From the IMG/VR virus record IMGVR_UViG_3300008262_000016: a stretch of DNA of 64,000 nt. One strand, 5' to 3'. Source of the DNA: a virus. Shown here in pieces: positions 6,785-50,360 of this stretch. Position 1 is the first letter of the stretch; every line of letters begins with the position of its first letter. The position numbers were made by a program, and so were the translations under genes. The notes beneath the pieces are model-generated. The model saw nothing but the letters and a program-made list of their open reading frames with translations, did not search any database and was not told the DNA's origin.

Positions 6785-6940
6785 TCAATCTCCCTCAAAC
6801 TTAAACATTTTTTCAAACCACTCATCTAGATGAATAGTATAACAGGACCAATAATTACAACCCCTGTATGTTAGTTGATAGCAAGCAGGAGGTCTATTGT
6901 CCTTATCCATATCATCATAATGATATTTGTAGTTGTCCAT
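6785..6940 (-). CDS. DUF4278-like small protein (51 aa)
   Basis: Manual translation MDNYKYHYDDMDKDNRPPACYQLTYRGCNYW... contains the LTYRG motif. Confidence 0.55.
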   Translation of the reverse strand: MDNYKYHYDDMDKDNRPPACYQLTYRGCNYWSCYTIHLDEWFEKMFKFEGD

Positions 6941-7026
6941 TATTTGTCCAACCACTGAACATACATTGATAAAAATACGGTTGTTAAAGCAATCGCAGCA
7001 GTAGTTGATACCATGAACTGTACCAT
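6940..7026 (-). CDS. 28-aa hydrophobic peptide
   Basis: MVQFMVSTTAAIALTTVFLSMYVQWLDK; TAATG overlaps on both sides. Confidence 0.45.
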   Translation of the reverse strand: MVQFMVSTTAAIALTTVFLSMYVQWLDK

Positions 7027-7124
7027 TACCTTGCTCCTACTAATTGTGCTAGTTGGGCTTGATGACGACGCTCTTCTTTTTGTTTTTGCTCTTTAATGAT
7101 TTGCAAGAAGTTTAGTTTCTTCAT
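7026..7124 (-). CDS. 32-aa basic helical peptide
   Basis: MKKLNFLQIIKEQKQKEERRHQAQLAQLVGAR; ATGA overlap with the DUF4278 gene and SD AGGAGG. Confidence 0.55.
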   Translation of the reverse strand: MKKLNFLQIIKEQKQKEERRHQAQLAQLVGAR

Positions 7125-7258
7125 TTGTGCCCCTCCTTTACATACTTAACACCACGATAGGTTTCGTTGTATTGTTGGGGTTGTTGCATCATCTGTTGTT
7201 GATATGCGATACGCTTTTCGGTATCGTATTCAGCACCACGATAAACTACTTTCGACAT
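7121..7258 (-). CDS. DUF4278 protein (45 aa)
   Basis: MSKVVYRGAEYD...TYRGVKY with two YRG motifs; SD AGGAG; directly downstream of the glutamine aptamer. Confidence 0.8.
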   Translation of the reverse strand: MSKVVYRGAEYDTEKRIAYQQQMMQQPQQYNETYRGVKYVKEGHK

Positions 7259-7290
7259 TGGTTTTCTCCTAAAGAAATGAGATGGTTAGT

Positions 7291-7466
7291 CCCGTTCCTT
7301 CAGTCGGCTTTTGCGTCTATGAAACAACCTTTCTTTGTGACTTGTTCAATTTCTAATATGAGACCAATTTTTTCATGGTCAGTGACGAAGTTACTAGCAT
7401 TAACTCTACTAATGAGAAGTTGTGCCTGTAAGCAAGATAAAAAGAGTTGCTCCATAGATGAACGAT
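7291..7466 (-). ncRNA. glutamine-II (Downstream-peptide) riboswitch aptamer 2, with an ORF in the P2 loop
   Basis: 5' half ATCGTTCATCTAT and 3' half ATAGACGCAAAAGCCGACTGAAGGAACGGG; lies upstream of DUF4278. Confidence 0.8.
7300..7455 (-). CDS. 51-aa protein nested in aptamer 2
   Basis: MEQLFLSCLQAQLLISRVNASNFVTDHEKIGLILEIEQVTKKGCFIDAKAD; paralogous to 7504..7710. Confidence 0.65.
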   Translation of the reverse strand: MEQLFLSCLQAQLLISRVNASNFVTDHEKIGLILEIEQVTKKGCFIDAKAD

Positions 7467-7721
7467 CCGTTCCGAGTCGGCTTACTTGCGTCCTATTCAG
7501 TTTTTAGCACCTTTGAACAACATCCTTTCGGAGTTCTAATAGCAATCGGTCTTCTCTTCTTTGGTCTACTACATCGTCGTTTTTAACGATGTCCATTAGT
7601 TCCCACGCTGCGTCACAACTTATAGTCACAGGATATGGATTCTGTATAAGTCGTGGCGTTGAAACAGAAAGAAGTGGAACCCATGCTAAAAGCAAAAGTG
7701 CTTTAGTCATAGGATGAACGT
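7467..7721 (-). ncRNA. glutamine riboswitch-like aptamer 1, with an ORF in the P2 loop
   Basis: 5' half ACGTTCATCCTAT and 3' half ATAGGACGCAAGTAAGCCGACTCGGAACGG; TATAAT at 7731-7736 just upstream. Confidence 0.7.
7504..7710 (-). CDS. 68-aa protein nested in aptamer 1
   Basis: Hydrophobic N-terminus, then ISCDAAWEL...LLLEL...RC, a pattern shared with 7300..7455. Confidence 0.65.
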   Translation of the reverse strand: MTKALLLLAWVPLLSVSTPRLIQNPYPVTISCDAAWELMDIVKNDDVVDQRREDRLLLELRKDVVQRC

Positions 7722-7776
7722 TAGGGGATTATTATACCCCTATTCATCCTATATAGGTCTTATATGTGTGAAAACA

Positions 7777-7790
7777 GTAACATAAGATAC
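7777..7790. promoter_or_regulatory. NtcA-consensus site
   Basis: GTAACATAAGATAC matches GTA-N8-TAC, upstream of the riboswitch promoter. Confidence 0.55.
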
Positions 7791-7885
7791 TAAATGGTAT
7801 CTATATTATACTAAAAAGCGTGAAGATTTGTGAAAACCCTCACGCAAGAAAATTTTGCCGGAAAAATTATTAGCGATATTGGAAA

Positions 7886-8197
7886 CTACTTTCGCTTTTT
7901 CTTTTCAGGCACATTATAACCCCATGACTTTGGATTGACTGTACCTTGAGTCCAATCCATTCGTCTTACATCACGATACTTATCCCAATAGTGGTCAAAG
8001 ATATCAGAGCGAAGACCTTGAACTACATCAAACTTTTCTTCATCATTATCACCATAAGATACTAGATAAGAATCTCTTGGAAGACTCTTATCGTCAGCAA
8101 AAGAAGGATCACAATTTATGTGAATAATATTGATACCCTTTCCCATATCAAGAACGATTGCCCCACTGAATATCGGGGAATGCTTCAGCAACATCAT
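7886..8197 (-). CDS. conserved cyanophage hypothetical protein
   Basis: NCDPSFADDKSLPRDSYLV...IFDHYWDKY...GTVNPKSWG; probable start MGKG at 8146. Confidence 0.65.
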   Translation of the reverse strand: MMLLKHSPIFSGAIVLDMGKGINIIHINCDPSFADDKSLPRDSYLVSYGDNDEEKFDVVQGLRSDIFDHYWDKYRDVRRMDWTQGTVNPKSWGYNVPEKKKRK

Positions 8198-34014: not shown

Positions 34015-34125
34015 GATAGTAAGACCATCAGGGAAATGGTGGAGATACTATGCTCCCCGCACCCTTAGCGGGGATATGAGAGACGGATTGGTAACCCTGC
34101 CTAGTCTCGGTCAAGCGGCAGGAGT
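34015..34125 (-). ncRNA. PhotoRC-II RNA motif (psbA 5' UTR)
   Basis: CCTGCCGCTTGACCGAGACTAGGCAGG...CCGTCTCTCATATCC...CACCATTTCCCTGATGGTC directly upstream of psbA. Confidence 0.8.
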
Positions 34126-34175
34126 GTTACAACTTGTTTCGGAAAGTTACATTCCGTAACGTTGTTGATGTATTT

Positions 34176-44854: not shown

Positions 44855-44935
44855 TAGGTCTTTACATGCACGCCACTTGCTCTTTGTCCAGAAGCAAGAA
44901 ACTGGGCGGGGTATACCCCATCCGCACCAGGGTTT
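44855..44935 (-). ncRNA. wcaG RNA motif
   Basis: CTGGTGCGGA, hairpin, CCAGTTTCTTGCTTCTGG..AGCAAGTGGCG; upstream of the glycosyltransferase island. Confidence 0.75.
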
Positions 44936-44980
44936 TTATCGTGTCTCCATCACGGGCATATTGGGGATTGACTCCACCAC

Positions 44981-45794: not shown

Positions 45795-45868
45795 TCCGAG
45801 ATGCAGGATTCGAACCTGCGACCCCTTCAGCCCAAGTGAAGTGCGCTACCAAACTGCGCTAATCCCGG
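45795..45868 (-). tRNA. tRNA-Pro(UGG)
   Basis: Cloverleaf; anticodon stem CTTCA/TGAAG, loop CTTGGGC; GGTTCGAATCC; promoter TTGACA-N17-TATAAT upstream. Confidence 0.92.
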
Positions 45869-46062
45869 TTGCGTTGAGTGGTCTTGCCTCTCAACAGAAG
45901 TAATTATACTACTTCTTGTGCCCTTTGTCAAATGGAGCCCAGTGTTGCCAGTCGTATTTGTGGACTGCCCAGATGCCCAAGATAGGCACAAAGACCATTA
46001 TGTAACAAATGAATCCAAGAAATAAATCATTGTTGAGTGCTGCTGCTGCGAAATGTCCCATA

Positions 46063-46338
46063 TTAATCCCATTCCTCGTAATATCTTCTAAAGTAAGAAT
46101 CTACTTTTTTTAAATCATCTAGGTGGATATTACATGTATAGTTATTATCATCACACCATTGTAGAGCCATCCAATGAAAGTTTTCCTCTCTCATCACTCT
46201 TTCCACACCATAACTTCTAGCAAAAGAAGACATAACGAAGTTCCAACACTGACTAGTGTGCTGTTCCATTTCCTTTATAATCCTCTGAGTCGTAATAACT
46301 CCCTTTCTTTGATCCAACATATAAAGTAGCAACCACAA
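46063..46338 (-). CDS. hypothetical protein
   Basis: ORF track; likely start MEQHTSQ. Confidence 0.45.
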   Translation of the reverse strand: MWLLLYMLDQRKGVITTQRIIKEMEQHTSQCWNFVMSSFARSYGVERVMREENFHWMALQWCDDNNYTCNIHLDDLKKVDSYFRRYYEEWD

Positions 46339-46495
46339 AAGGGATTGCTAATACAACAAGAAACCTTCCTAATAAATGGGGCATTACATTCCTCCGTTTC
46401 TAAATCCAACTAGGTATCCAATAATAAGTCCACACATAAATGCTACAAACATATAGAGCATATGTGAGAAAAAGTCAATGAAAATAAACCACTCT

Positions 46496-46681
46496 TCAGT
46501 CGTCATCTTGGTTCATTAACTCCTCTATTCGTTTTCTCATATTGGTCATTTTTTGTTTCTCGTGGTCCATATGAGTATATCCACGATGCCCTTTCATTAT
46601 CATTGTGCCTTGATAGAACATCGTGGCAGCAAAGATAAGAAGCAGAACTATACCTATTATTTCAGGGTAATGTTGAGCCAT
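46496..46681 (-). CDS. small membrane protein
   Basis: TM helix then GHRGY.H. Confidence 0.55.
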   Translation of the reverse strand: MAQHYPEIIGIVLLLIFAATMFYQGTMIMKGHRGYTHMDHEKQKMTNMRKRIEELMNQDDD

Positions 46682-46860
46682 GGTAGTAAGGGTGGAATGA
46701 CGCCTATAAGCCTTAGCAGTCCTTCAGCAAATAAAGCAAGGACAACCCAACCAACGCACATAGAAATAATGGAAGCATTTCGATTGTGCCTTCGTATAGC
46801 AGCATCAATCATCTCCTGGCATTCAGAGCGAGTGATTAACTCTTCTTGTTCGTGTATCAT
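46657..46860 (-). CDS. small membrane protein
   Basis: ECQEMIDAAIRRHNRNASIISMCVGWVVLALFAEGLLRL. Confidence 0.6.
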   Translation of the reverse strand: MIHEQEELITRSECQEMIDAAIRRHNRNASIISMCVGWVVLALFAEGLLRLIGVIPPLLPWLNITLK

Positions 46861-47054
46861 TTTTCATCACCAAGAAACTTCGCCAGAGGGTCTCTTCTGG
46901 TCTTTACAATTTCTACTGCTCTCTTGTAGAACATATTGTCTGTGTTACCAGACTCTTCGAAGGTCGCCTTGATCTTCACCCAATTCTCGTAGGTGTGCTG
47001 ATCCATACGGGTTTTAAATTGAATACTACTAGCTATAATAGCAAGTAGTTTCAA
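46857..47054 (-). CDS. small conserved cyanophage protein
   Basis: MDQHTYENWVKIKATFEESGNTDNMFYKRA; likely start at the second Met. Confidence 0.6.
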   Translation of the reverse strand: MKLLAIIASSIQFKTRMDQHTYENWVKIKATFEESGNTDNMFYKRAVEIVKTRRDPLAKFLGDEK

Positions 47055-47115
47055 CCCGTCAACTTTGTGTTGATTTCAAAAAAGTGTTGAAGAAATTATT
47101 AAATCTTAAATAAAA

Positions 47116-47200
47116 CGGAGAGAGTAGGATTCGAACCAACGGAAGCTTTCACTTCGGCAGTTTTCAAGACTGCTGCCTTAAACCACTCGGCCATCTCTCC
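47116..47200 (-). tRNA. tRNA-Ser(UGA)
   Basis: GGAGAGATGGCCGAGTGG..., loop CTTGAAA, long variable arm. Confidence 0.95.
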
Positions 47201-47206
47201 AAATTT

Positions 47207-47464
47207 TCAGCGAACTTCAAAGTCCAGTTTACGAACCTTGCGTTGCTTTCTTTGTTCTTGCCACAGGATATCTTCTTGTGTAAGAACACCCTTTTTATTT
47301 TTGGGTTGATAAGAGTTTAGCATAATAACATTAGATAAGTCAAGTGCTGAAATCTTATCACCACGAATAGTCGCCATATTAGGGCAACCACAAGTCACCG
47401 TTTTATTCTGATGCCCCTCTAACTCCTTACCACAGGAGCGGCATCTTATCTTAATGTTATCCAT
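47207..47464 (-). CDS. small Zn-ribbon protein
   Basis: CRSCG...CGCPN; C-terminal RKVRKLDFEVR. Confidence 0.65.
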   Translation of the reverse strand: MDNIKIRCRSCGKELEGHQNKTVTCGCPNMATIRGDKISALDLSNVIMLNSYQPKNKKGVLTQEDILWQEQRKQRKVRKLDFEVR

Positions 47465-47487
47465 TATAAGTTAACTGTATTCAGTTT

Positions 47488-48024
47488 TCAGTTATTTATA
47501 TGAAACTTCGGATGTTGCTTGTCCTTACTATAACGCCCACCTTTACTCTTCTGGGGCGGTAAAGTTTTTTGTGCGTGACAATTAGGACAGACCACTTGTA
47601 GGTTTTCAGGAGAATGGTTAAAAGGGTCGTCGTCTATGTGGTCCACCTCAAGGCAGATTCGTCCTGTATGGATGTTTGTGCCAGACCAACCACAAAGAGA
47701 ACACTTACCCCCGCTCGCTTCCAGTAGATAGTTTCTTATGTATCCTGGCGTATCCCCCCTATCAGTTGATAATGCGTTGCCCGCCAACCAGTTCTCTACT
47801 TTTAGTTTCTTCCTACCAGCGGCACTACACTCATTGGAGCAAAACTTACCAGTGCTCTTCTTGGTCTGGTAGTCAAACTCCACACCACAGTGTTGGCAAG
47901 TGGCAGTCTTCCAGGCGGTTCTCTTACGCTTGGGCGTATTTTTGTTATTATAAATGGCGGCACAGGATCGGGAGCAGAACTTAGGTTTATCGTGCTCGCA
48001 TCCGCAGTTTAGACAACTATTCAT
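47488..48024 (-). CDS. HNH homing endonuclease with N-terminal Zn modules, within the tRNA region
   Basis: KFCS..C repeats; CSLCG...LEVDHID....N...ENLQVVCPNCH; TATAAATA at 48047-48054. Confidence 0.88.
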   Translation of the reverse strand: MNSCLNCGCEHDKPKFCSRSCAAIYNNKNTPKRKRTAWKTATCQHCGVEFDYQTKKSTGKFCSNECSAAGRKKLKVENWLAGNALSTDRGDTPGYIRNYLLEASGGKCSLCGWSGTNIHTGRICLEVDHIDDDPFNHSPENLQVVCPNCHAQKTLPPQKSKGGRYSKDKQHPKFHINN

Positions 48025-48098
48025 AATAGAAACAAAGACCTATTATTATTTATAACATAAGTCTCCGTTTCTATTAAGTTGTCAGTAAACTCTAATAA

Positions 48099-48171
48099 TG
48101 CCCGATACAGGTAACGCTCCCGTCAATGTCTGAGTGTAAATCAGGTCCCTTCACTTGCTGGGTCATCGGGC
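48099..48171 (-). tRNA. tRNA-Val(UAC) with atypical D- and T-loops
   Basis: Acceptor GCCCGAT/ATCGGGC, anticodon loop TTTACAC, T-loop AGCGTTA. Confidence 0.7.
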
Positions 48172-48193
48172 AGGTCTATTACACCTGAGTGTA

Positions 48194-48355
48194 TCAACAT
48201 TGTAGCATATACTCTACAGTTTTGGCAACATCTTCCATAGCCAGTCTCAAATCTTCCCTCTGCCCAGATTCTTGTCTGCAGATAGGGCGTCGGTCATCAA
48301 CAAGAGTCCAACGCCATTGATTCATATCAGCACAATACCACAGATTAATTTTCAT
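48194..48355 (-). CDS. small conserved cyanophage protein (53 aa)
   Basis: MKINLWYCADMNQWRWTL...QESGQ..DLR.AM.DVA.TVEY. Confidence 0.6.
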   Translation of the reverse strand: MKINLWYCADMNQWRWTLVDDRRPICRQESGQREDLRLAMEDVAKTVEYMLQC

Positions 48356-48548
48356 TCTTCTGATATTCTAGTTTGATCCAGTTTAAAAGAGCATAAGTTT
48401 CTGATAGTTCTAACTTATGATCTTGGTAGTCAGTATCTTCCAACATACCCTCTCTTTCATAAAACTCAATCTCACTAGAAAGATAATCAATATAATGATT
48501 GATGGCGGTGATAGTAAGTTGCCTATCCCGTTGTGAAATAAGAGACAT
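48345..48548 (-). CDS. hypothetical protein
   Basis: MSLISQRDRQL...LLNWIKLE. Confidence 0.55.
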   Translation of the reverse strand: MSLISQRDRQLTITAINHYIDYLSSEIEFYEREGMLEDTDYQDHKLELSETYALLNWIKLEYQKNEN

Positions 48549-48761
48549 AAGACTTCTCAGTATACTACTATCTATTCAGGCAAGTATCTCCCACTTGCCC
48601 ATCAAGTTTTTTATGTTCTGCTGTATGAATTCCTTGTATCAACACAAAAGTGACTAAAAGAACTGTAGGCACTGCCCACATTTCATTTCCAATTGCTCTA
48701 AGGATCTTTAAAAGTTTAATCATAAAAAAGGGGTCCGAAGACCCCAGTATTATAGCATAAA

Positions 48762-49145
48762 TCAGAAGCTATAACGAACTTTAACTTCACCACCAAGATC
48801 AAGGACCTCAGAACTCATACCATACTCACCAGCAACTTTCCCTTTGAGGGAAACTTTCTTAGCAAGAGGATAAGAGAAACCTACTTCACCAACGGCAACA
48901 CCTTCACTCTTAGTTTTACCAGTGTTGAACTCATAACCAGGACCGATTTCGCCATAGACTTTCAGACCAGACTTACCAACCTTTTCATCATAACCAACAC
49001 GAAGTTCGGTTTGAGAACCTTTGTAGGTGCTCTTATCACTGGTAACAGAGATACCAGAGGTGGTCTTACTTTCTACATATGGACCAGCAAGGGCAGGTGC
49101 CGCAATCATCGGAAGTGCCATTGCGGCAAGAGCGATTGCTTTCAT
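48762..49145 (-). CDS. small outer-membrane beta-barrel-like protein
   Basis: Signal peptide ...ALAGPYVE, alternating beta pattern, C-terminal Y-x-F. Confidence 0.7.
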   Translation of the reverse strand: MKAIALAAMALPMIAAPALAGPYVESKTTSGISVTSDKSTYKGSQTELRVGYDEKVGKSGLKVYGEIGPGYEFNTGKTKSEGVAVGEVGFSYPLAKKVSLKGKVAGEYGMSSEVLDLGGEVKVRYSF

Positions 49146-49278
49146 AAAAATCTCCTTTTATAAACATTAAATGTCTTCAATAAAAAAGACCCCTATATTC
49201 TAACAGGGGTCTTTAAGTTTGTCGTTAAGGTTTAGTTAACAATCAATGTGGACAGTTAGGTTCCACAAACCTTCTATT

Positions 49279-49638
49279 TCAGAAGGTGTACTTCACACCA
49301 GCCTTGATGTTGCTGGTCAGGTCATCACCAGTCAGGAACCAGTACTCACCATAGACGCTCAGGTTGTCGGTAGCGGCAACAGAAGCACCTGCCTTACCAG
49401 AAACCTTAACGGTTGCGTCACCACCTTCAGGAGTGGACAGTGCAGGACCAACCTGAACATAACCGTTAACGGTAGGAGACAGAGCACCTTCATAACCAAG
49501 ATGTGCTTCGGTCAGAGTACCGATGTAGTCAGAACCAACGACACCAGCGTTAGATTCTACATTAACATAAGGGCCAGCGAACGCAGCCGAAGCAAGGAAA
49601 GGAGCAGCAGCAACAGCTGCGATTGCGGATTTAAACAT
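49279..49638 (-). CDS. small outer-membrane beta-barrel-like protein (paralog)
   Basis: Signal peptide ...AFAGPYVNVE, C-terminal KAGVKYTF. Confidence 0.72.
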   Translation of the reverse strand: MFKSAIAAVAAAPFLASAAFAGPYVNVESNAGVVGSDYIGTLTEAHLGYEGALSPTVNGYVQVGPALSTPEGGDATVKVSGKAGASVAATDNLSVYGEYWFLTGDDLTSNIKAGVKYTF

Positions 49639-49807
49639 AATAGTACCTCTAAGTTTCTCGCAGAATTATACCTGCGGATGTAAGGAGAATCGACTTTCTC
49701 CGTTTCAGTGACTCAACGAGTATTTGAGGTTTTATCACTTGAACATATTTATTTTAACATTCGCTTAACCTTTTTGTCAAGGGGGTGGTTAACCGAATCT
49801 TTTAAAA

Positions 49808-49879
49808 AGCGGAGTATCGGATTCGAACCGACGACGAACTGCTTGGAAGGCAGCCATTCTACCACTGAATTAACTCCGC
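49808..49879 (-). tRNA. tRNA-Gly(UCC)
   Basis: GCGGAGT acceptor, loop CTTCCAA, GGTTCGAATCC. Confidence 0.93.
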
Positions 49880-49953
49880 AGGCGGTGGGAGATTGCTCTC
49901 CCAAACACTTGCCCACACGGAAGGGATTATAAGACGGAGTTTTATTTCCGTCA

Positions 49954-50026
49954 AGCCCCCGCTCGGAATCGAACCGAGAATCTTCCGCTTACAAGGCGGA
50001 TGCAGTAACCGTTATGCTACAAGGGC
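49954..50026 (-). tRNA. tRNA-Thr(UGU)
   Basis: Loop CTTGTAA, GGTTCGATTCC. Confidence 0.93.
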
Positions 50027-50029
50027 AGG

Positions 50030-50103
50030 CTCCTGCTGCTGGGCTCGAACCAGCGACATCCGGATTAACAGTCCAGCGCAACTACCAACTGTGCTAAGCA
50101 GGA
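50030..50103 (-). tRNA. tRNA-Asn(GUU)
   Basis: TCCTGCT acceptor, loop CTGTTAA. Confidence 0.93.
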
Positions 50104-50271
50104 TTACAGGGGTTTAACACCCTGTTCCTTACAAAGTTTGAAGTAGAGTTTATAATACCTCTGCTTCATCTCAGCAAGGATTTTATTGTCCTCTTCAAAA
50201 CCCAATTTCTTGGTATGGGCATAACACCCCTCAAGTTCTCCAATTAATATTAGAATTTTTATTGGGTCCAT
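50104..50271 (-). CDS. 55-aa hypothetical protein between tRNAs
   Basis: MDPIKILILIGELEGCYAHTKKLGFEED... Confidence 0.5.
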   Translation of the reverse strand: MDPIKILILIGELEGCYAHTKKLGFEEDNKILAEMKQRYYKLYFKLCKEQGVKPL

Positions 50272-50287
50272 AATGAAGAAAGGACAA

Positions 50288-50360
50288 CAGGCACGGCTGG
50301 ACTCGAACCAGCAATCGGCAACTTAGAAGGTTGATGCATTATCCATTATGCTACGTGCCC
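50288..50360 (-). tRNA. tRNA-Arg(UCU)
   Basis: Loop CTTCTAA, GGTTCGAGTCC; promoter TTGACA-N17-TATACT upstream. Confidence 0.93.

What the first reader, a model, noticed from the sequence alone, without database searches (positions are those of the whole stretch)
7291..7736. Tandem glutamine riboswitch aptamers, each with a protein-coding gene looped out of its P2 stem
Seen (minus strand): TATAAT, then unit 1 = CGTTCA-TCCTAT[G, 68-aa ORF]...ATAGGA-CGCAAGTAAGCCGACTCGGAACGG. Unit 2 follows immediately = ATCGTTCA-TCTAT[G, 51-aa ORF]...ATAGA-CGCAAAAGCCGACTGAAGGAACGGG, then AGGAG and DUF4278. P1 (CGTTC/GAACG) is intact in both. In both units the start codon overlaps the 5' strand of P2, and the start of the ORF pairs with its end. 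Unit 2: TCTATGGAGCAAC/GTTGTTTCATAGA, 13 bp with 2 G-U. Unit 1: TCCTAT/ATAGGA plus AGCACTTTTG/CAAAGGTGCT. The last codons of ORF2 (IDAKAD-stop) are the aptamer's 3' half. The two ORFs are paralogous ((I/L)SC..A..L...V...L(I/L)LE(I/L)...C), so [half-aptamer + ORF + half-aptamer] appears to have been duplicated as a unit. Known: glutamine-II/Downstream-peptide aptamers normally have a short variable P2 and precede DUF4278 genes. Inference: a 'gene inside a riboswitch' design. Glutamine-bound folding would bury the nested start codons while switching the downstream gene, and ribosomes on the nested ORFs would unfold the aptamers. The long inserts could hide such elements from standard covariance searches.
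Basis: partly seen in the sequence, partly recalled or inferred. Interest (0 to 1): 0.85.

Follow-up and report, generated by a model that had tools for sequence, protein, structure and literature searches.

The report
Two genes nested inside glutamine riboswitch
In this freshwater cyanophage, a glutamine-sensing RNA switch ahead of a nitrogen-control gene closes two of its hairpins around complete small protein genes, so sensing nitrogen status and translating those genes probably compete on one RNA; I found no paper describing this layout.

Summary
On the minus strand, 7720..7293, two glutamine-I-type half-aptamer pairs each enclose a real ORF of 68 and 51 codons. Each start codon lies in the 5' strand of P2, and ORF2's stop lies in the conserved core. 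Rfam finds nothing here.

The layout is common. Of 193 related units in IMG/VR, the P2 insert is either 8-29 nt or 130-229 nt. 83 of 84 long inserts hold such an ORF.

The ORFs are under purifying selection (dN/dS about 0.25). They have two invariant cysteines and are distant paralogues. They survive in phages where the aptamer has decayed. The ORF ends co-evolve to pair.

The "tandem" reading needs correcting. Covariation shows the two units share one helix: the strand after AAGUA in unit 1 pairs with the strand before GAAGG in unit 2. Only together do they form the E-loop. This gives one interlocked double sensor, not two independent aptamers.

The operon also has an NtcA-like box and a 5' hairpin, both conserved.

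The mechanism is inferred, not shown: the glutamine-bound fold hides both nested start codons and turns on the IF17-like gene, while ribosomes on the nested genes unfold the sensor.

Earlier agents of this scan reported the same architecture on other DNA. I tested it independently here.

The parts
7777..7790 (-). NtcA-like box GTATCTTATGTTAC (GTA-N8-TAC). It lies 21 nt upstream of TATATA (7755-7750).
   Evidence: Sequence verified. GTAN8TAC occurs within 130 nt upstream of the first half-aptamer in 120 of 135 unique related loci, against 4.8% of background windows. Positions cluster at 58-62 and 70 nt. NtcA binding itself was not tested.
7722..7742 (-). 5' hairpin UAGGGG-UAUAAUAAU-CCCCUA, ending next to the first half-aptamer.
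   Evidence: 93% of 126 unique upstream regions fold here (mean -6.3 against -1.2 kcal/mol for shuffles). The stems differ between loci but stay complementary: UAGAGG/CCUCUA, AGGUC/GACCU, UGUGUUA/UAACACA, GGGUAUG/CAUACC. RNA contigs of run X15 reach bin 7716-7749.
7715..7720 (-). CGUUC + A: the 5' strand of the outer P1 plus the junction A. This is the 5' half of the outer sensor core.
   Evidence: Invariant in all related units. The MFE fold of 7726-7288 closes this end of the RNA on the far 3' half, though in a register shifted by one (UUCA 7718-7715 with UGAA 7302-7299, and C7720 with G7297). The single-aptamer relative L200 joins this half to a GAAGGAACG-type 3' half.
7504..7710 (-). Nested gene 1. 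It encodes 68 aa: a signal-peptide-like N-terminus, then a two-helix hairpin bracketed by Cys32 and Cys68.
   Evidence: ORF listed. 233 relatives in IMG/VR. dN/dS median 0.23, with third codon positions the most variable. Alignments A1/A5 have invariant C32, L56 and C68. AF2 gives the core pLDDT 80-88 and the N-terminus under 60. Covered deeply by RNA contigs in 4 metatranscriptome studies.
7491..7714 (-). P2 of the outer core, closed around gene 1. UCCUAU (7714-7709, holding the first two nucleotides (AU) of the AUG at 7710-7708) pairs with AUAGGA (7496-7491). AGCACUUUUG (7702-7693) pairs with CAAAGGUGCU (7515-7506).
   Evidence: Duplexfold gives -17.4 kcal/mol. Basal pairs 1-5 are paired in 76-82 of 82 ORF-bearing units, with covariation at pairs 3-5. 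Both helices appear in the MFE of the whole RNA.
7474..7490 (-). CGCAAGUA (J2/3 with the AGUA half of the E-loop), then AGCCGACU (strand A of the shared P3), then C.
   Evidence: Covariation with strand B is shown. The E-loop is defined as GAAGUAA/UGAAGC in the solved aptamer (PMC5393176).
7460..7473 (-). GGAACG-GAU-CGUUC: the inner P1, a 5-bp hairpin with a 3-nt loop.
   Evidence: Predicted as a hairpin in the MFE. The spacing is 3-4 nt in 73 of 77 doubles. A 43-nt insertion is tolerated in L149. The P1 sequences never vary, so covariation cannot tell the two topologies apart.
7300..7455 (-). Nested gene 2. It encodes 51 aa: a two-helix hairpin with Cys8 and Cys44. The tail DAKAD and the UGA stop are encoded by the sensor core.
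   Evidence: ORF listed. 653 protein clusters are related at E<=1e-3. Alignments A2/A4 have invariant C8 and C44. dN/dS is 0.26. AF2 pLDDT is 88, falling to about 50 in the tail.
7316..7458 (-). P2 of the inner core, closed around gene 2. UCUAUGGAGCAAC (7458-7446, holding the AUG) pairs with GUUGUUUCAUAGA (7328-7316).
   Evidence: 13 bp with 2 G-U. Duplexfold gives -21.5 kcal/mol. Predicted in the MFE.
7293..7315 (-). CGCAAA (inner J2/3), AGCCGACU (strand B of the shared P3), GAAG (the other half of the E-loop) and GAACG (3' strand of the outer P1). The UGA stop of gene 2 is at 7302-7300.
   Evidence: Inter-unit pairs are shown.
7121..7270 (-). SD AGGAG (7270-7266) and the regulated gene, a 45-aa DUF4278/IF17-like protein with YRG repeats.
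   Evidence: Pfam PF14105 scores 19.4 bits (cut-off 25.3), with phrog_5049 at E 8e-10. The P-HM2 orthologue scores 28.8 bits. DUF4278 is the domain of the glutamine synthetase inactivating factor IF17 (PMC6212724).
6940..7124 (-). Two translationally coupled tiny ORFs (32 aa and 28 aa), with ATGA and TAATG overlaps, completing the small operon.
   Evidence: The 32-aa ORF hits phrog_545 at E 6e-4.

Best explanation
The stretch 7790..6940 (minus strand) is a small nitrogen-status operon of a freshwater T4-like cyanophage.

Its leader is one interlocked double glutamine-I-type sensor.
- The outer core is CGUUC (7720-7716) paired with GAACG (7297-7293), P2 closed around gene 1, and an E-loop made of AGUA from the first unit and GAAG from the second.
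- Its P3 is a duplex of the two AGCCGACU strands.
- At the far end of P3 sits a second, circularly permuted core: the GGAACG-GAU-CGUUC hairpin, with P2 closed around gene 2.
- Both nested genes encode real small proteins, each a two-helix hairpin bracketed by two cysteines.

What is shown: the anatomy, the coding status, the helix covariation, and the presence of this stretch in RNA libraries.

What is inferred: the working logic.
- When glutamine is high, the fold is stabilised. Both nested start codons are held in the basal P2 helices. As in the cyanobacterial gifB leader, the downstream IF17-like gene then becomes translatable.
- When glutamine is low, the P2 helices breathe and ribosomes load on the nested genes. 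Their passage through the P2 3' strands, the shared P3 strand B and the stop at 7302-7300 keeps the sensor unfolded and the IF17-like gene off.
- The result would be reciprocal expression from one transcript. That transcript is probably made from an NtcA-type promoter.
For: Anatomy and recurrence:
- The window sequence and coordinates are verified.
- Loop-less orthologues in S-PM2, S-CREM1 and DSL-LC02 hit RF01739 at 24-35.6 bits. They are identical to the window outside P2.
- P2 insert length is bimodal, and 83 of 84 long inserts hold an ORF with a fixed start and stop.
- All four hairpin/ORF combinations exist: 24, 25, 12 and 14 loci.

P2:
- Basal pairs 1-5 are paired in 76-82 of 82 units and covary.
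- Native ORF ends pair at -15.9 kcal/mol against -9.6 for cross-cluster pairs, in 11 of 11 clusters.
- At least one AUG nucleotide is paired in 82 of 82 units, and at least two in 72 of 82.

Shared P3:
- Pair col40-col86 is G-C 11, U-A 9, A-U 4. Hairpin-type closing pairs fail in 15 of 24.
- Redesigned strand pairs remain complementary only between units.
- The single-aptamer relative L200 carries gene 1 in P2, both AGUA and GAAG, and the same helix as a hairpin.
- The MFE of the 439-nt window RNA gives the nested topology: -115.2 kcal/mol, z -2.9.
- The interlocked model R1 scores 110-117 bits on loop-less doubles.

Coding:
- The genes persist without the aptamer in L178 and L192.

Expression:
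- RNA contigs of 4 studies cover 7036-7749 and none covers 7784-7900.

Logic:
- Glutamine switches of both types turn on DUF4278 genes (PMC6212724; PMC6698751).
- The ligand-contacting C1:G59 pair and G22 have counterparts in both cores.
- The NtcA-like box is present in 120 of 135 loci.
Against: - No ligand binding, structure probing or translation data exist for any ORF-bearing version. RNA contigs cannot show transcript ends or strand, and DNA carry-over cannot be excluded.
- In this window both inter-unit closing pairs are the default A-U. The interlocked fold is therefore inferred from relatives, not from this sequence alone.
- P1 never varies. A pseudoknotted form, with tandem P1s and a swapped P3, cannot be excluded.
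- The shared P3 has two A.C mismatches and is not in the MFE.
- The window has no clear SD-sequestering helix. Relatives such as S-SRM01 and S-CREM1 have CUCUUUAA/UUAAGGAG. The ON direction is therefore borrowed from Synechocystis and Prochlorococcus leaders.
- The nested genes and the sensor can each exist without the other, which weakens the case for obligatory coupling.
- The nested genes lack an SD.
Confidence: 0.55

Rival explanations
1. Passenger genes. The P2 loops of this riboswitch tolerate any insert as long as the stem base closes, and a compact phage genome has parked two small genes there. The sensor controls only the IF17-like gene. The nested genes are translated regardless of glutamine, and their overlap with the stems reflects genome compaction.
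For: - Sensor and genes occur independently: hairpin-only doubles in 24 loci, and genes without aptamer halves in L178 and L192.
- End-to-end pairing would be needed just to keep P2 closed.
- Overlapping signals are common in this operon, such as the ATGA and TAATG overlaps.
Against: - The AUG lies in the basal P2 helix in 82 of 82 units. This includes window-type gene 1, whose 3' stem strand is non-coding, so a non-coding 5' strand would have been equally possible.
- The stop is fixed inside the core in 67 of 84 units.
- No inserts of intermediate length and no non-coding inserts were seen.
Confidence: 0.27
2. One reading: two independent tandem aptamers in series, each with its own P1, P2 and small P3 hairpin, giving a steeper (pseudo-cooperative) response.
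For: - Rfam aligns each loop-less unit separately to RF01739.
- The literature counts such phage RNAs among 157 glutamine doublets (PMC9481103).
- In this window both AG-CCGA-CU mini-hairpins are possible.
Against: - The intra-unit closing pairs fail in 15 of 24 relatives, while the inter-unit pair holds in 24 of 24 with three pair types.
- Variants such as AGUCGC / ACGACU cannot form hairpins at all.
- Neither unit alone has both halves of the E-loop.
- Single units score at or below the Rfam cut-off, while the interlocked model scores 110-117 bits.
Confidence: 0.08
3. Relic sensor. In ORF-bearing versions the aptamer no longer works. The conserved halves persist because they now serve as coding sequence, translation signals or RNase sites.
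For: - Decay does happen: L178 and L192 have lost the 3' halves, and L192 has CAGUUCA.
- The DAKAD tail shows the core is also read as protein.
Against: - In loci found through protein 1 alone, 66 of 67 keep CGUUCA and 65 of 67 keep a complete 3' half with all core nucleotides.
- The non-coding parts of the halves are as invariant as the coding ones.
- P2 and P3 covariation holds in ORF-bearing units.
- AF2 places the DAKAD tail at low confidence, so it is unlikely to be conserved for the protein's sake.
Confidence: 0.06
4. The inserts are structured non-coding RNA domains, and the ORFs are accidental.
For: The whole RNA folds better than shuffles (z -2.9).
Against: - dN/dS is 0.23-0.27, with third codon positions the most variable.
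- The frame is kept across many length variants, and both cysteines are invariant.
- The AF2 fold is confident.
- 653 protein clusters are related.
Confidence: 0.02

Closest known systems
Glutamine-I riboswitch (glnA RNA, Rfam RF01739), e.g. the Synechocystis gifB/IF17 leader (Klahn et al. 2018, PMC6212724) and the structure of Ren et al. 2015
   Same: - CGUUC/GAACG P1 and junction A.
- P2 opening with U-A and C-G.
- CG(G/C)AAGUA and GAAG strands forming an E-loop at the base of P3.
- Position in the leader of a DUF4278 (IF17-like) gene.
- Loop-less phage orthologues hit the model.
   Different: - P3 is not a hairpin. It is a duplex between two units, with a second permuted core at its far end.
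- Both P2 hairpins enclose complete genes (223 and 142 nt between CGUUCA and the 3' core).
- The window gets no Rfam hit.
Tandem 'pseudo-cooperative' glutamine riboswitch doublets (Weinberg 2010, PMC2864571; Sherlock et al. 2022, PMC9481103)
   Same: Two glutamine-aptamer-like units, 3-4 nt apart, ahead of one gene. Phage examples such as S-CREM1 are annotated this way.
   Different: Covariation shows the two units are not self-contained but share P3 and the E-loop. The papers I could read do not mention this, nor any ORF inside the units.
Group I introns of phages and organelles with homing-endonuclease ORFs looped out of peripheral stems
   Same: A functional RNA fold whose peripheral hairpin carries a whole protein gene. 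The ORF sometimes runs into core-forming sequence, so translation and RNA folding compete. This comparison rests on general knowledge.
   Different: - Here the RNA is a metabolite sensor in an mRNA leader, not a ribozyme.
- The nested genes are not endonucleases, and nothing points to mobility.
- The start codon is systematically inside the stem.
Leader ORFs inside the Mg2+-sensing mgtA and mgtCBR leaders (mgtL, mgtM, mgtP) of Salmonella
   Same: An ORF lies within a ligand-sensing leader, and its translation decides which RNA structure forms. This comparison rests on general knowledge.
   Different: Those are short sensor peptides without a protein function of their own, and they lie between alternative stems. 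Here the ORFs are conserved 50-68-aa folded proteins, placed inside the aptamer's own P2 hairpins.

Membership tests
Glutamine-I riboswitch (RF01739) | P1 CGUUC/GAACG with junction A | tested here: met
   Two copies of each strand, at 7720-7715, 7473-7468, 7464-7459 and 7297-7293. They are invariant in relatives, so which 5' strand pairs with which 3' strand cannot be read from covariation.
Glutamine-I riboswitch (RF01739) | P2 helix opening with U-A and C-G, with a variable distal part | tested here: met
   Pairs 1-2 are invariant U-A and C-G. Pairs 3-5 covary in 82 ORF-bearing units. The same holds in hairpin versions. The distal part is a whole gene.
Glutamine-I riboswitch (RF01739) | E-loop from J2/3 (G)AAGUA and J3/1 (U)GAAG | tested here: met
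   Met only across units. AAGUA is at 7487-7483 in unit 1, and GAAG is at 7301-7298 in unit 2. Unit 1 lacks GAAG and unit 2 lacks GUA in all doubles. The motif definition comes from PMC5393176.
Glutamine-I riboswitch (RF01739) | P3 as a local hairpin | tested here: not met
   Hairpin closing pairs fail in 15 of 24 relatives. The helix forms between the units instead.
Glutamine-I riboswitch (RF01739) | Score at or above Rfam's gathering cut-off (35 bits) | tested here: not met
   The window has no hit even at E<=10. Loop-less orthologues score 24.4-35.6 bits. I could not run the model on an in-silico loop-deleted window sequence.
Glutamine-I riboswitch (RF01739) | Selective binding of L-glutamine | not testable with these tools
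   Counterparts of the ligand-contacting C1:G59 pair and G22 (PMC6698751) are present in both cores. This is inference only.
Glutamine-II riboswitch / Downstream-peptide (RF01704) | Pseudoknot architecture matching the model | tested here: not met
   The only hit is sub-threshold: 24.6 bits against a cut-off of 33, on S-PM2 unit 1. There is none in the window.
Independent tandem riboswitch doublet | Each aptamer folds on its own | tested here: not met
   P3 and the E-loop are shared between the units.
DUF4278 / IF17-like (PF14105), for the downstream gene | Pfam score at or above 25.3 bits | tested here: inconclusive
   The window protein scores 19.4 bits, E 0.0014. Orthologues in the same position score 20-21 bits, and the P-HM2 orthologue scores 28.8 bits. 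phrog_5049 matches at E 8e-10.
NtcA-activated promoter | GTA-N8-TAC about 22 nt upstream of a TAN3T -10 box | tested here: inconclusive
   The window has the box at 7790-7777, then 21 nt, then TATATA. The box is conserved in 120 of 135 loci, but its distance varies: 58-62 or 70 nt from CGUUCA. No binding or TSS data exist.

The most novel reading that the evidence does not exclude
One phage RNA is at once a two-site glutamine sensor and the mRNA of two proteins encoded inside its own helices. It works as a ribosome-gated toggle. With low glutamine, the nested cysteine-stapled mini-proteins are made and the sensor is kept unfolded. With high glutamine, their start codons are locked away and the IF17-like glutamine synthetase inhibitor is made. 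The phage would thus read host nitrogen status through transcription (NtcA, sensing 2-oxoglutarate) and translation (glutamine) on one molecule.
Probability: 0.35. Interest if true: 0.9.

Novelty: new variant of a known kind. Interest (0 to 1): 0.8.

Why it matters
Riboswitch aptamers are treated as compact non-coding domains. Searches, including Rfam, assume short variable loops. Here a validated class appears in a form where two hairpins each hold a complete, selected protein gene. What is catalogued as a "tandem" doublet is better explained as one interlocked fold.

Three things follow if this holds:
- Many riboswitches with long inserts may be invisible to current scans. The window scores nothing in Rfam and only 20 bits with a dedicated model.
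- It offers a natural, experimentally tractable case of direct competition between ribosomes and a metabolite-sensing fold on one RNA. A culturable system exists: P-HM2 on Prochlorococcus MED4 has the same double-nested layout.
- It points to a phage strategy for reading and manipulating host nitrogen status, combining the NtcA box, a glutamine sensor and an IF17-like inhibitor of glutamine synthetase. It also adds two unknown small proteins whose expression would be tied to that status.

Tried and rejected
- **Rfam on the window** at gathering and at E<=10 gave no glutamine hit. The tools search only held sources, so I could not run Rfam on a loop-deleted sequence. I used natural loop-less orthologues instead and a model of my own.
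I used the single protein instead.
- **The genome-contig scan with the 3'-half pattern** returned mostly chance matches in high-GC genomes. Only three were low-GC true hits, on short contigs that are probably phage DNA in MAGs or SAGs. This says nothing about hosts.
- **Model R1** found nothing in 151 genomes of the family of a Prochlorococcus SAG. The result is "not found in those searched", and R1 cannot see ORF-bearing forms.
- **Pfam, PHROGs, Foldseek-PDB and the ESM Atlas** gave no function for the nested proteins. Results were phrog_504 of unknown function, only generic helical hairpins, and only viral hypothetical clusters.
- **An SD-sequestering helix in the window** was not clear. The MFE pairs AAGGAA with UUUCUU next to the SD, with z +0.7.
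- **Ames & Breaker 2011** could not be read.
- **Literature searches** for nested ORFs, or for a shared helix in glutamine riboswitches, found nothing.
- **RNA depth within ORF2** (7342-7409) is low. The RNA contigs there come from relatives that carry the hairpin form (table 5c), so it is not evidence about ORF2 expression.
Full report
**What is there**

The window is a T4-like cyanophage. Rfam finds wcaG RNA, PhotoRC-II and six tRNAs. The nearest isolates are freshwater and estuarine Kyanoviridae at about 70% identity. DNA runs holding the stretch are mostly freshwater metagenomes.

- Unit 1: CGTTCA at 7720-7715, and TCCTAT at 7714-7709, holding the first two bases of the ATG (7710-7708). 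A 68-codon ORF runs to 7504. Then come ATAGGA 7496-7491 and a 3' half ending in GGAACG at 7468.
- Three bases later comes unit 2: CGTTCA at 7464-7459, and TCTATGGAGCAAC with its ATG at 7455. A 51-codon ORF follows, whose last codons and TGA (7302-7300) are the 3' half. Then come GAAG and GAACG at 7301-7293.
- Downstream are AGGAG and a 45-codon ORF.
- The two long-range stems are as described: 6 + 10 bp around ORF1 and 13 bp around ORF2.

Rfam reports no glutamine-family match here, even at E<=10.

**It is a glutamine-I leader**

Isolated phages give a natural deletion series.
- S-PM2 and S-CREM1 have the same two units with short P2 hairpins.
- DSL-LC02 and S-SRM01 have a hairpin in unit 1 and an annotated CDS in unit 2.
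- P-HM2 has annotated CDSs in both units.

Outside P2 the window is identical to S-PM2, which is why BLAST aligns them in two pieces. The loop-less units hit RF01739 at 24.4-35.6 bits against a cut-off of 35. S-CREM1's unit is annotated glnA in its record. RF01704 gives only one sub-threshold hit. The family is therefore Glutamine-I, not Glutamine-II.

The downstream protein is a weak DUF4278 match (19.4 bits). Its P-HM2 orthologue passes the cut-off. DUF4278 is the domain of IF17, the glutamine synthetase inactivating factor. In cyanobacteria its genes are switched on by glutamine riboswitches (PMC6212724).

**The nesting is a rule, not an accident**

A pattern for the 3' half recovered 201 units from IMG/VR, and 193 of them had a CGTTCA partner. 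The distance between the halves is either 8-29 nt (109 units) or 130-229 nt (83 units). There was one outlier at 366 nt and nothing in between.

In 83 of the 84 long inserts, an ATG 9-13 nt after the C of CGTTCA opens an ORF that fills the insert. It ends at a fixed place:
- the TGA of GACUGAAGG (52 units);
- the TAA of AAGUAAGCC (15 units);
- or a few bases before the 3' half.

Hairpin|hairpin, hairpin|ORF, ORF|hairpin and ORF|ORF doubles occur in 24, 25, 12 and 14 loci. The window belongs to the last class.

**The ORFs are genes**

- Pairwise dN/dS medians are 0.23-0.27, and third codon positions vary most.
- Lengths differ among relatives, yet the frame is always kept. Each family has two invariant cysteines.
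- A profile of the unit-2 family finds 653 protein clusters. The unit-1 protein finds 233 loci.
- The two families are distant paralogues: hhalign probability 88.7%, E 2.5e-6, aligned over both cysteines.
- AlphaFold predicts a two-helix hairpin bracketed by the cysteines. ORF2 has pLDDT 88, and the ORF1 core has 80-88.
- The aptamer-encoded tail DAKAD has low confidence. ORF1's first 25 residues look like a signal peptide, though this is inference only.
- No family, fold or atlas search gives a function.

In loci found through protein 1 alone, 66 of 67 keep CGTTCA and 65 of 67 keep a full 3' half. In two loci the aptamer has decayed while the genes remain.
- L178 keeps both genes but has no 3' halves and no DUF4278 gene.
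- L192 keeps gene 1 followed by a terminator.

So the genes have a function of their own.

**The stems are selected**

In 82 unique ORF-bearing units, basal P2 pairs 1-5 are paired in 82, 82, 82, 76 and 80 cases. Pairs 3-5 covary through C-G, U-A, A-U and U-G.

Beyond the base, the first and last 28 nt of each insert pair at -15.9 kcal/mol on average. Ends taken from different protein clusters pair at only -9.6. The difference holds in all 11 clusters.

At least one nucleotide of the AUG is paired in every unit, and at least two are paired in 72 of 82.

**The two units are one fold**

Earlier notes of this scan, on other DNA, called this RNA "interlocked". I tested that independently.

- Unit 1 always has AAGUA but not GAAG, and unit 2 the reverse. 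In the solved aptamer these two strands together form the E-loop at the base of P3 (PMC5393176).
- On 24 hairpin|hairpin doubles, the base after GCCGAC in unit 1 pairs with the base before GCCGAC in unit 2 in 24 of 24 cases (G-C 11, U-A 9, A-U 4). The pairs that would close a small hairpin within each unit fail in 15 of 24.
- Loci found through protein 1 add whole redesigns that are complementary only between units: AGUCG/CGACU, GGACGG/CCGCCC and GGACGACG/CGCCGCCC.
- L200 is a single aptamer that carries gene 1 in P2. It has both AGUA and GAAG, and the same helix closed as a hairpin.

The simplest topology has these parts:
- an outer P1, formed by the first CGUUC and the last GAACG;
- a shared P3;
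- a permuted inner core whose P1 is the GGAACG-GAU-CGUUC hairpin.

The MFE of the 439-nt window RNA has this topology, including both gene-spanning P2 stems (-115.2 kcal/mol, z -2.9). It does not include the mismatched P3.

A covariance model of this fold scores 117 and 111 bits on S-PM2 and S-CREM1 but only 20 bits on the window. P1 never varies, so a pseudoknotted alternative cannot be excluded. In this window both inter-unit closing pairs are the default A-U, so the reading rests on relatives.

**Surroundings**

- A GTA-N8-TAC box (7790-7777) lies 21 nt before TATATA. Such a box is present upstream of 120 of 135 related leaders, against 4.8% of background windows.
- A hairpin abuts the first CGUUCA in 93% of 126 leaders. 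Its stems covary and its loop resembles a -10 box.
- Contigs from four metatranscriptome studies cover 7036-7749 and none covers 7784-7900. This fits a transcript that starts just before the hairpin. However, contigs cannot show ends or strand.
- Some RNA contigs carry the hairpin form of unit 2, so relatives are expressed too.

**How it probably works (inferred)**

Glutamine stabilises the interlocked fold. Both nested AUGs are then held in P2, and the IF17-like gene becomes translatable, as in gifB leaders.

At low glutamine, ribosomes enter the nested genes. Their transit through the P2 3' strands, P3 strand B and the stop inside the core keeps the sensor open.

The main rival is that the genes are mere passengers in tolerant loops. 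The fact that sensor and genes each occur without the other favours that view. The universal placement of the AUG inside the stem and of the stop inside the core argues against it.

**Novelty**

The papers I could read describe glutamine doublets as tandem, pseudo-cooperative units. They mention neither a shared helix nor ORFs within aptamers. Ames & Breaker 2011 could not be read. I file this as a new variant of a known kind.

Noticed in passing
window 7777-7790 (minus): A perfect NtcA-type box, GTATCTTATGTTAC, lies 21 nt upstream of TATATA (7755-7750). A GTAN8TAC box is conserved upstream of 120 of 135 related leaders, at 58-62 or 70 nt from CGUUCA.
   Followed up: partly
window 7722-7742 (minus): A conserved 5' hairpin abuts the sensor, with covarying stems across phages and a -10-like loop (UAUAAU). 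It may be a 5'-terminal stabilising stem-loop or an extra helix of the sensor.
   Followed up: partly
proteins P0038, P0045, P0059, P0068: These are natural in-frame fusions of 108-114 aa. The UGA in the core reads UGG, and the nested protein runs through the linker and SD into the DUF4278 protein. All are on short ENA contigs. They may be real variants or sequencing errors.
   Followed up: no
L178:1440-2100, L192:1440-1800, L200:1455-1830: Three informative natural variants. L178 has both nested genes without 3' halves or a DUF4278 gene. L192 has gene 1 followed by a terminator. L200 is a single complete aptamer with gene 1 in P2 and an anti-SD CUCUUUAA after P1.
   Followed up: partly
alignment A3 columns 35/92 and 38/89; window 7480 with 7304, and 7477 with 7307: The shared P3 keeps two A.C mismatches. 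C.A is present in 24 of 24, and A.C in 20 of 24 (the rest are A-U). In L155 the first one is inverted to A.C rather than repaired. This suggests a protonated wobble or a tertiary contact.
   Followed up: no
window 6785-7124 (minus): A chain of tiny ORFs follows the DUF4278 gene, with overlapping stop/start signals (ATGA, TAATG). The sizes are 32 aa (phrog_545), 28 aa (hydrophobic) and about 50 aa.
   Followed up: no
window 7271-7300 (minus): GAAGGAA of the last P1 strand can instead pair with UUUCUU just before the SD. This may be part of the expression platform in this lineage. It is not better than shuffles.
   Followed up: partly
L149:1700-1830: A 43-nt insertion sits between GGAACG and the next CGUUCA, where other loci have 3-4 nt. 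It is tolerated in the loop of the inner P1 (46 bits).
   Followed up: no
window 44862-44955, 34040-34135, 45795-50360: wcaG RNA (70 bits), PhotoRC-II (56 bits) and six tRNA genes, as usual for T4-like cyanophages.
   Followed up: no
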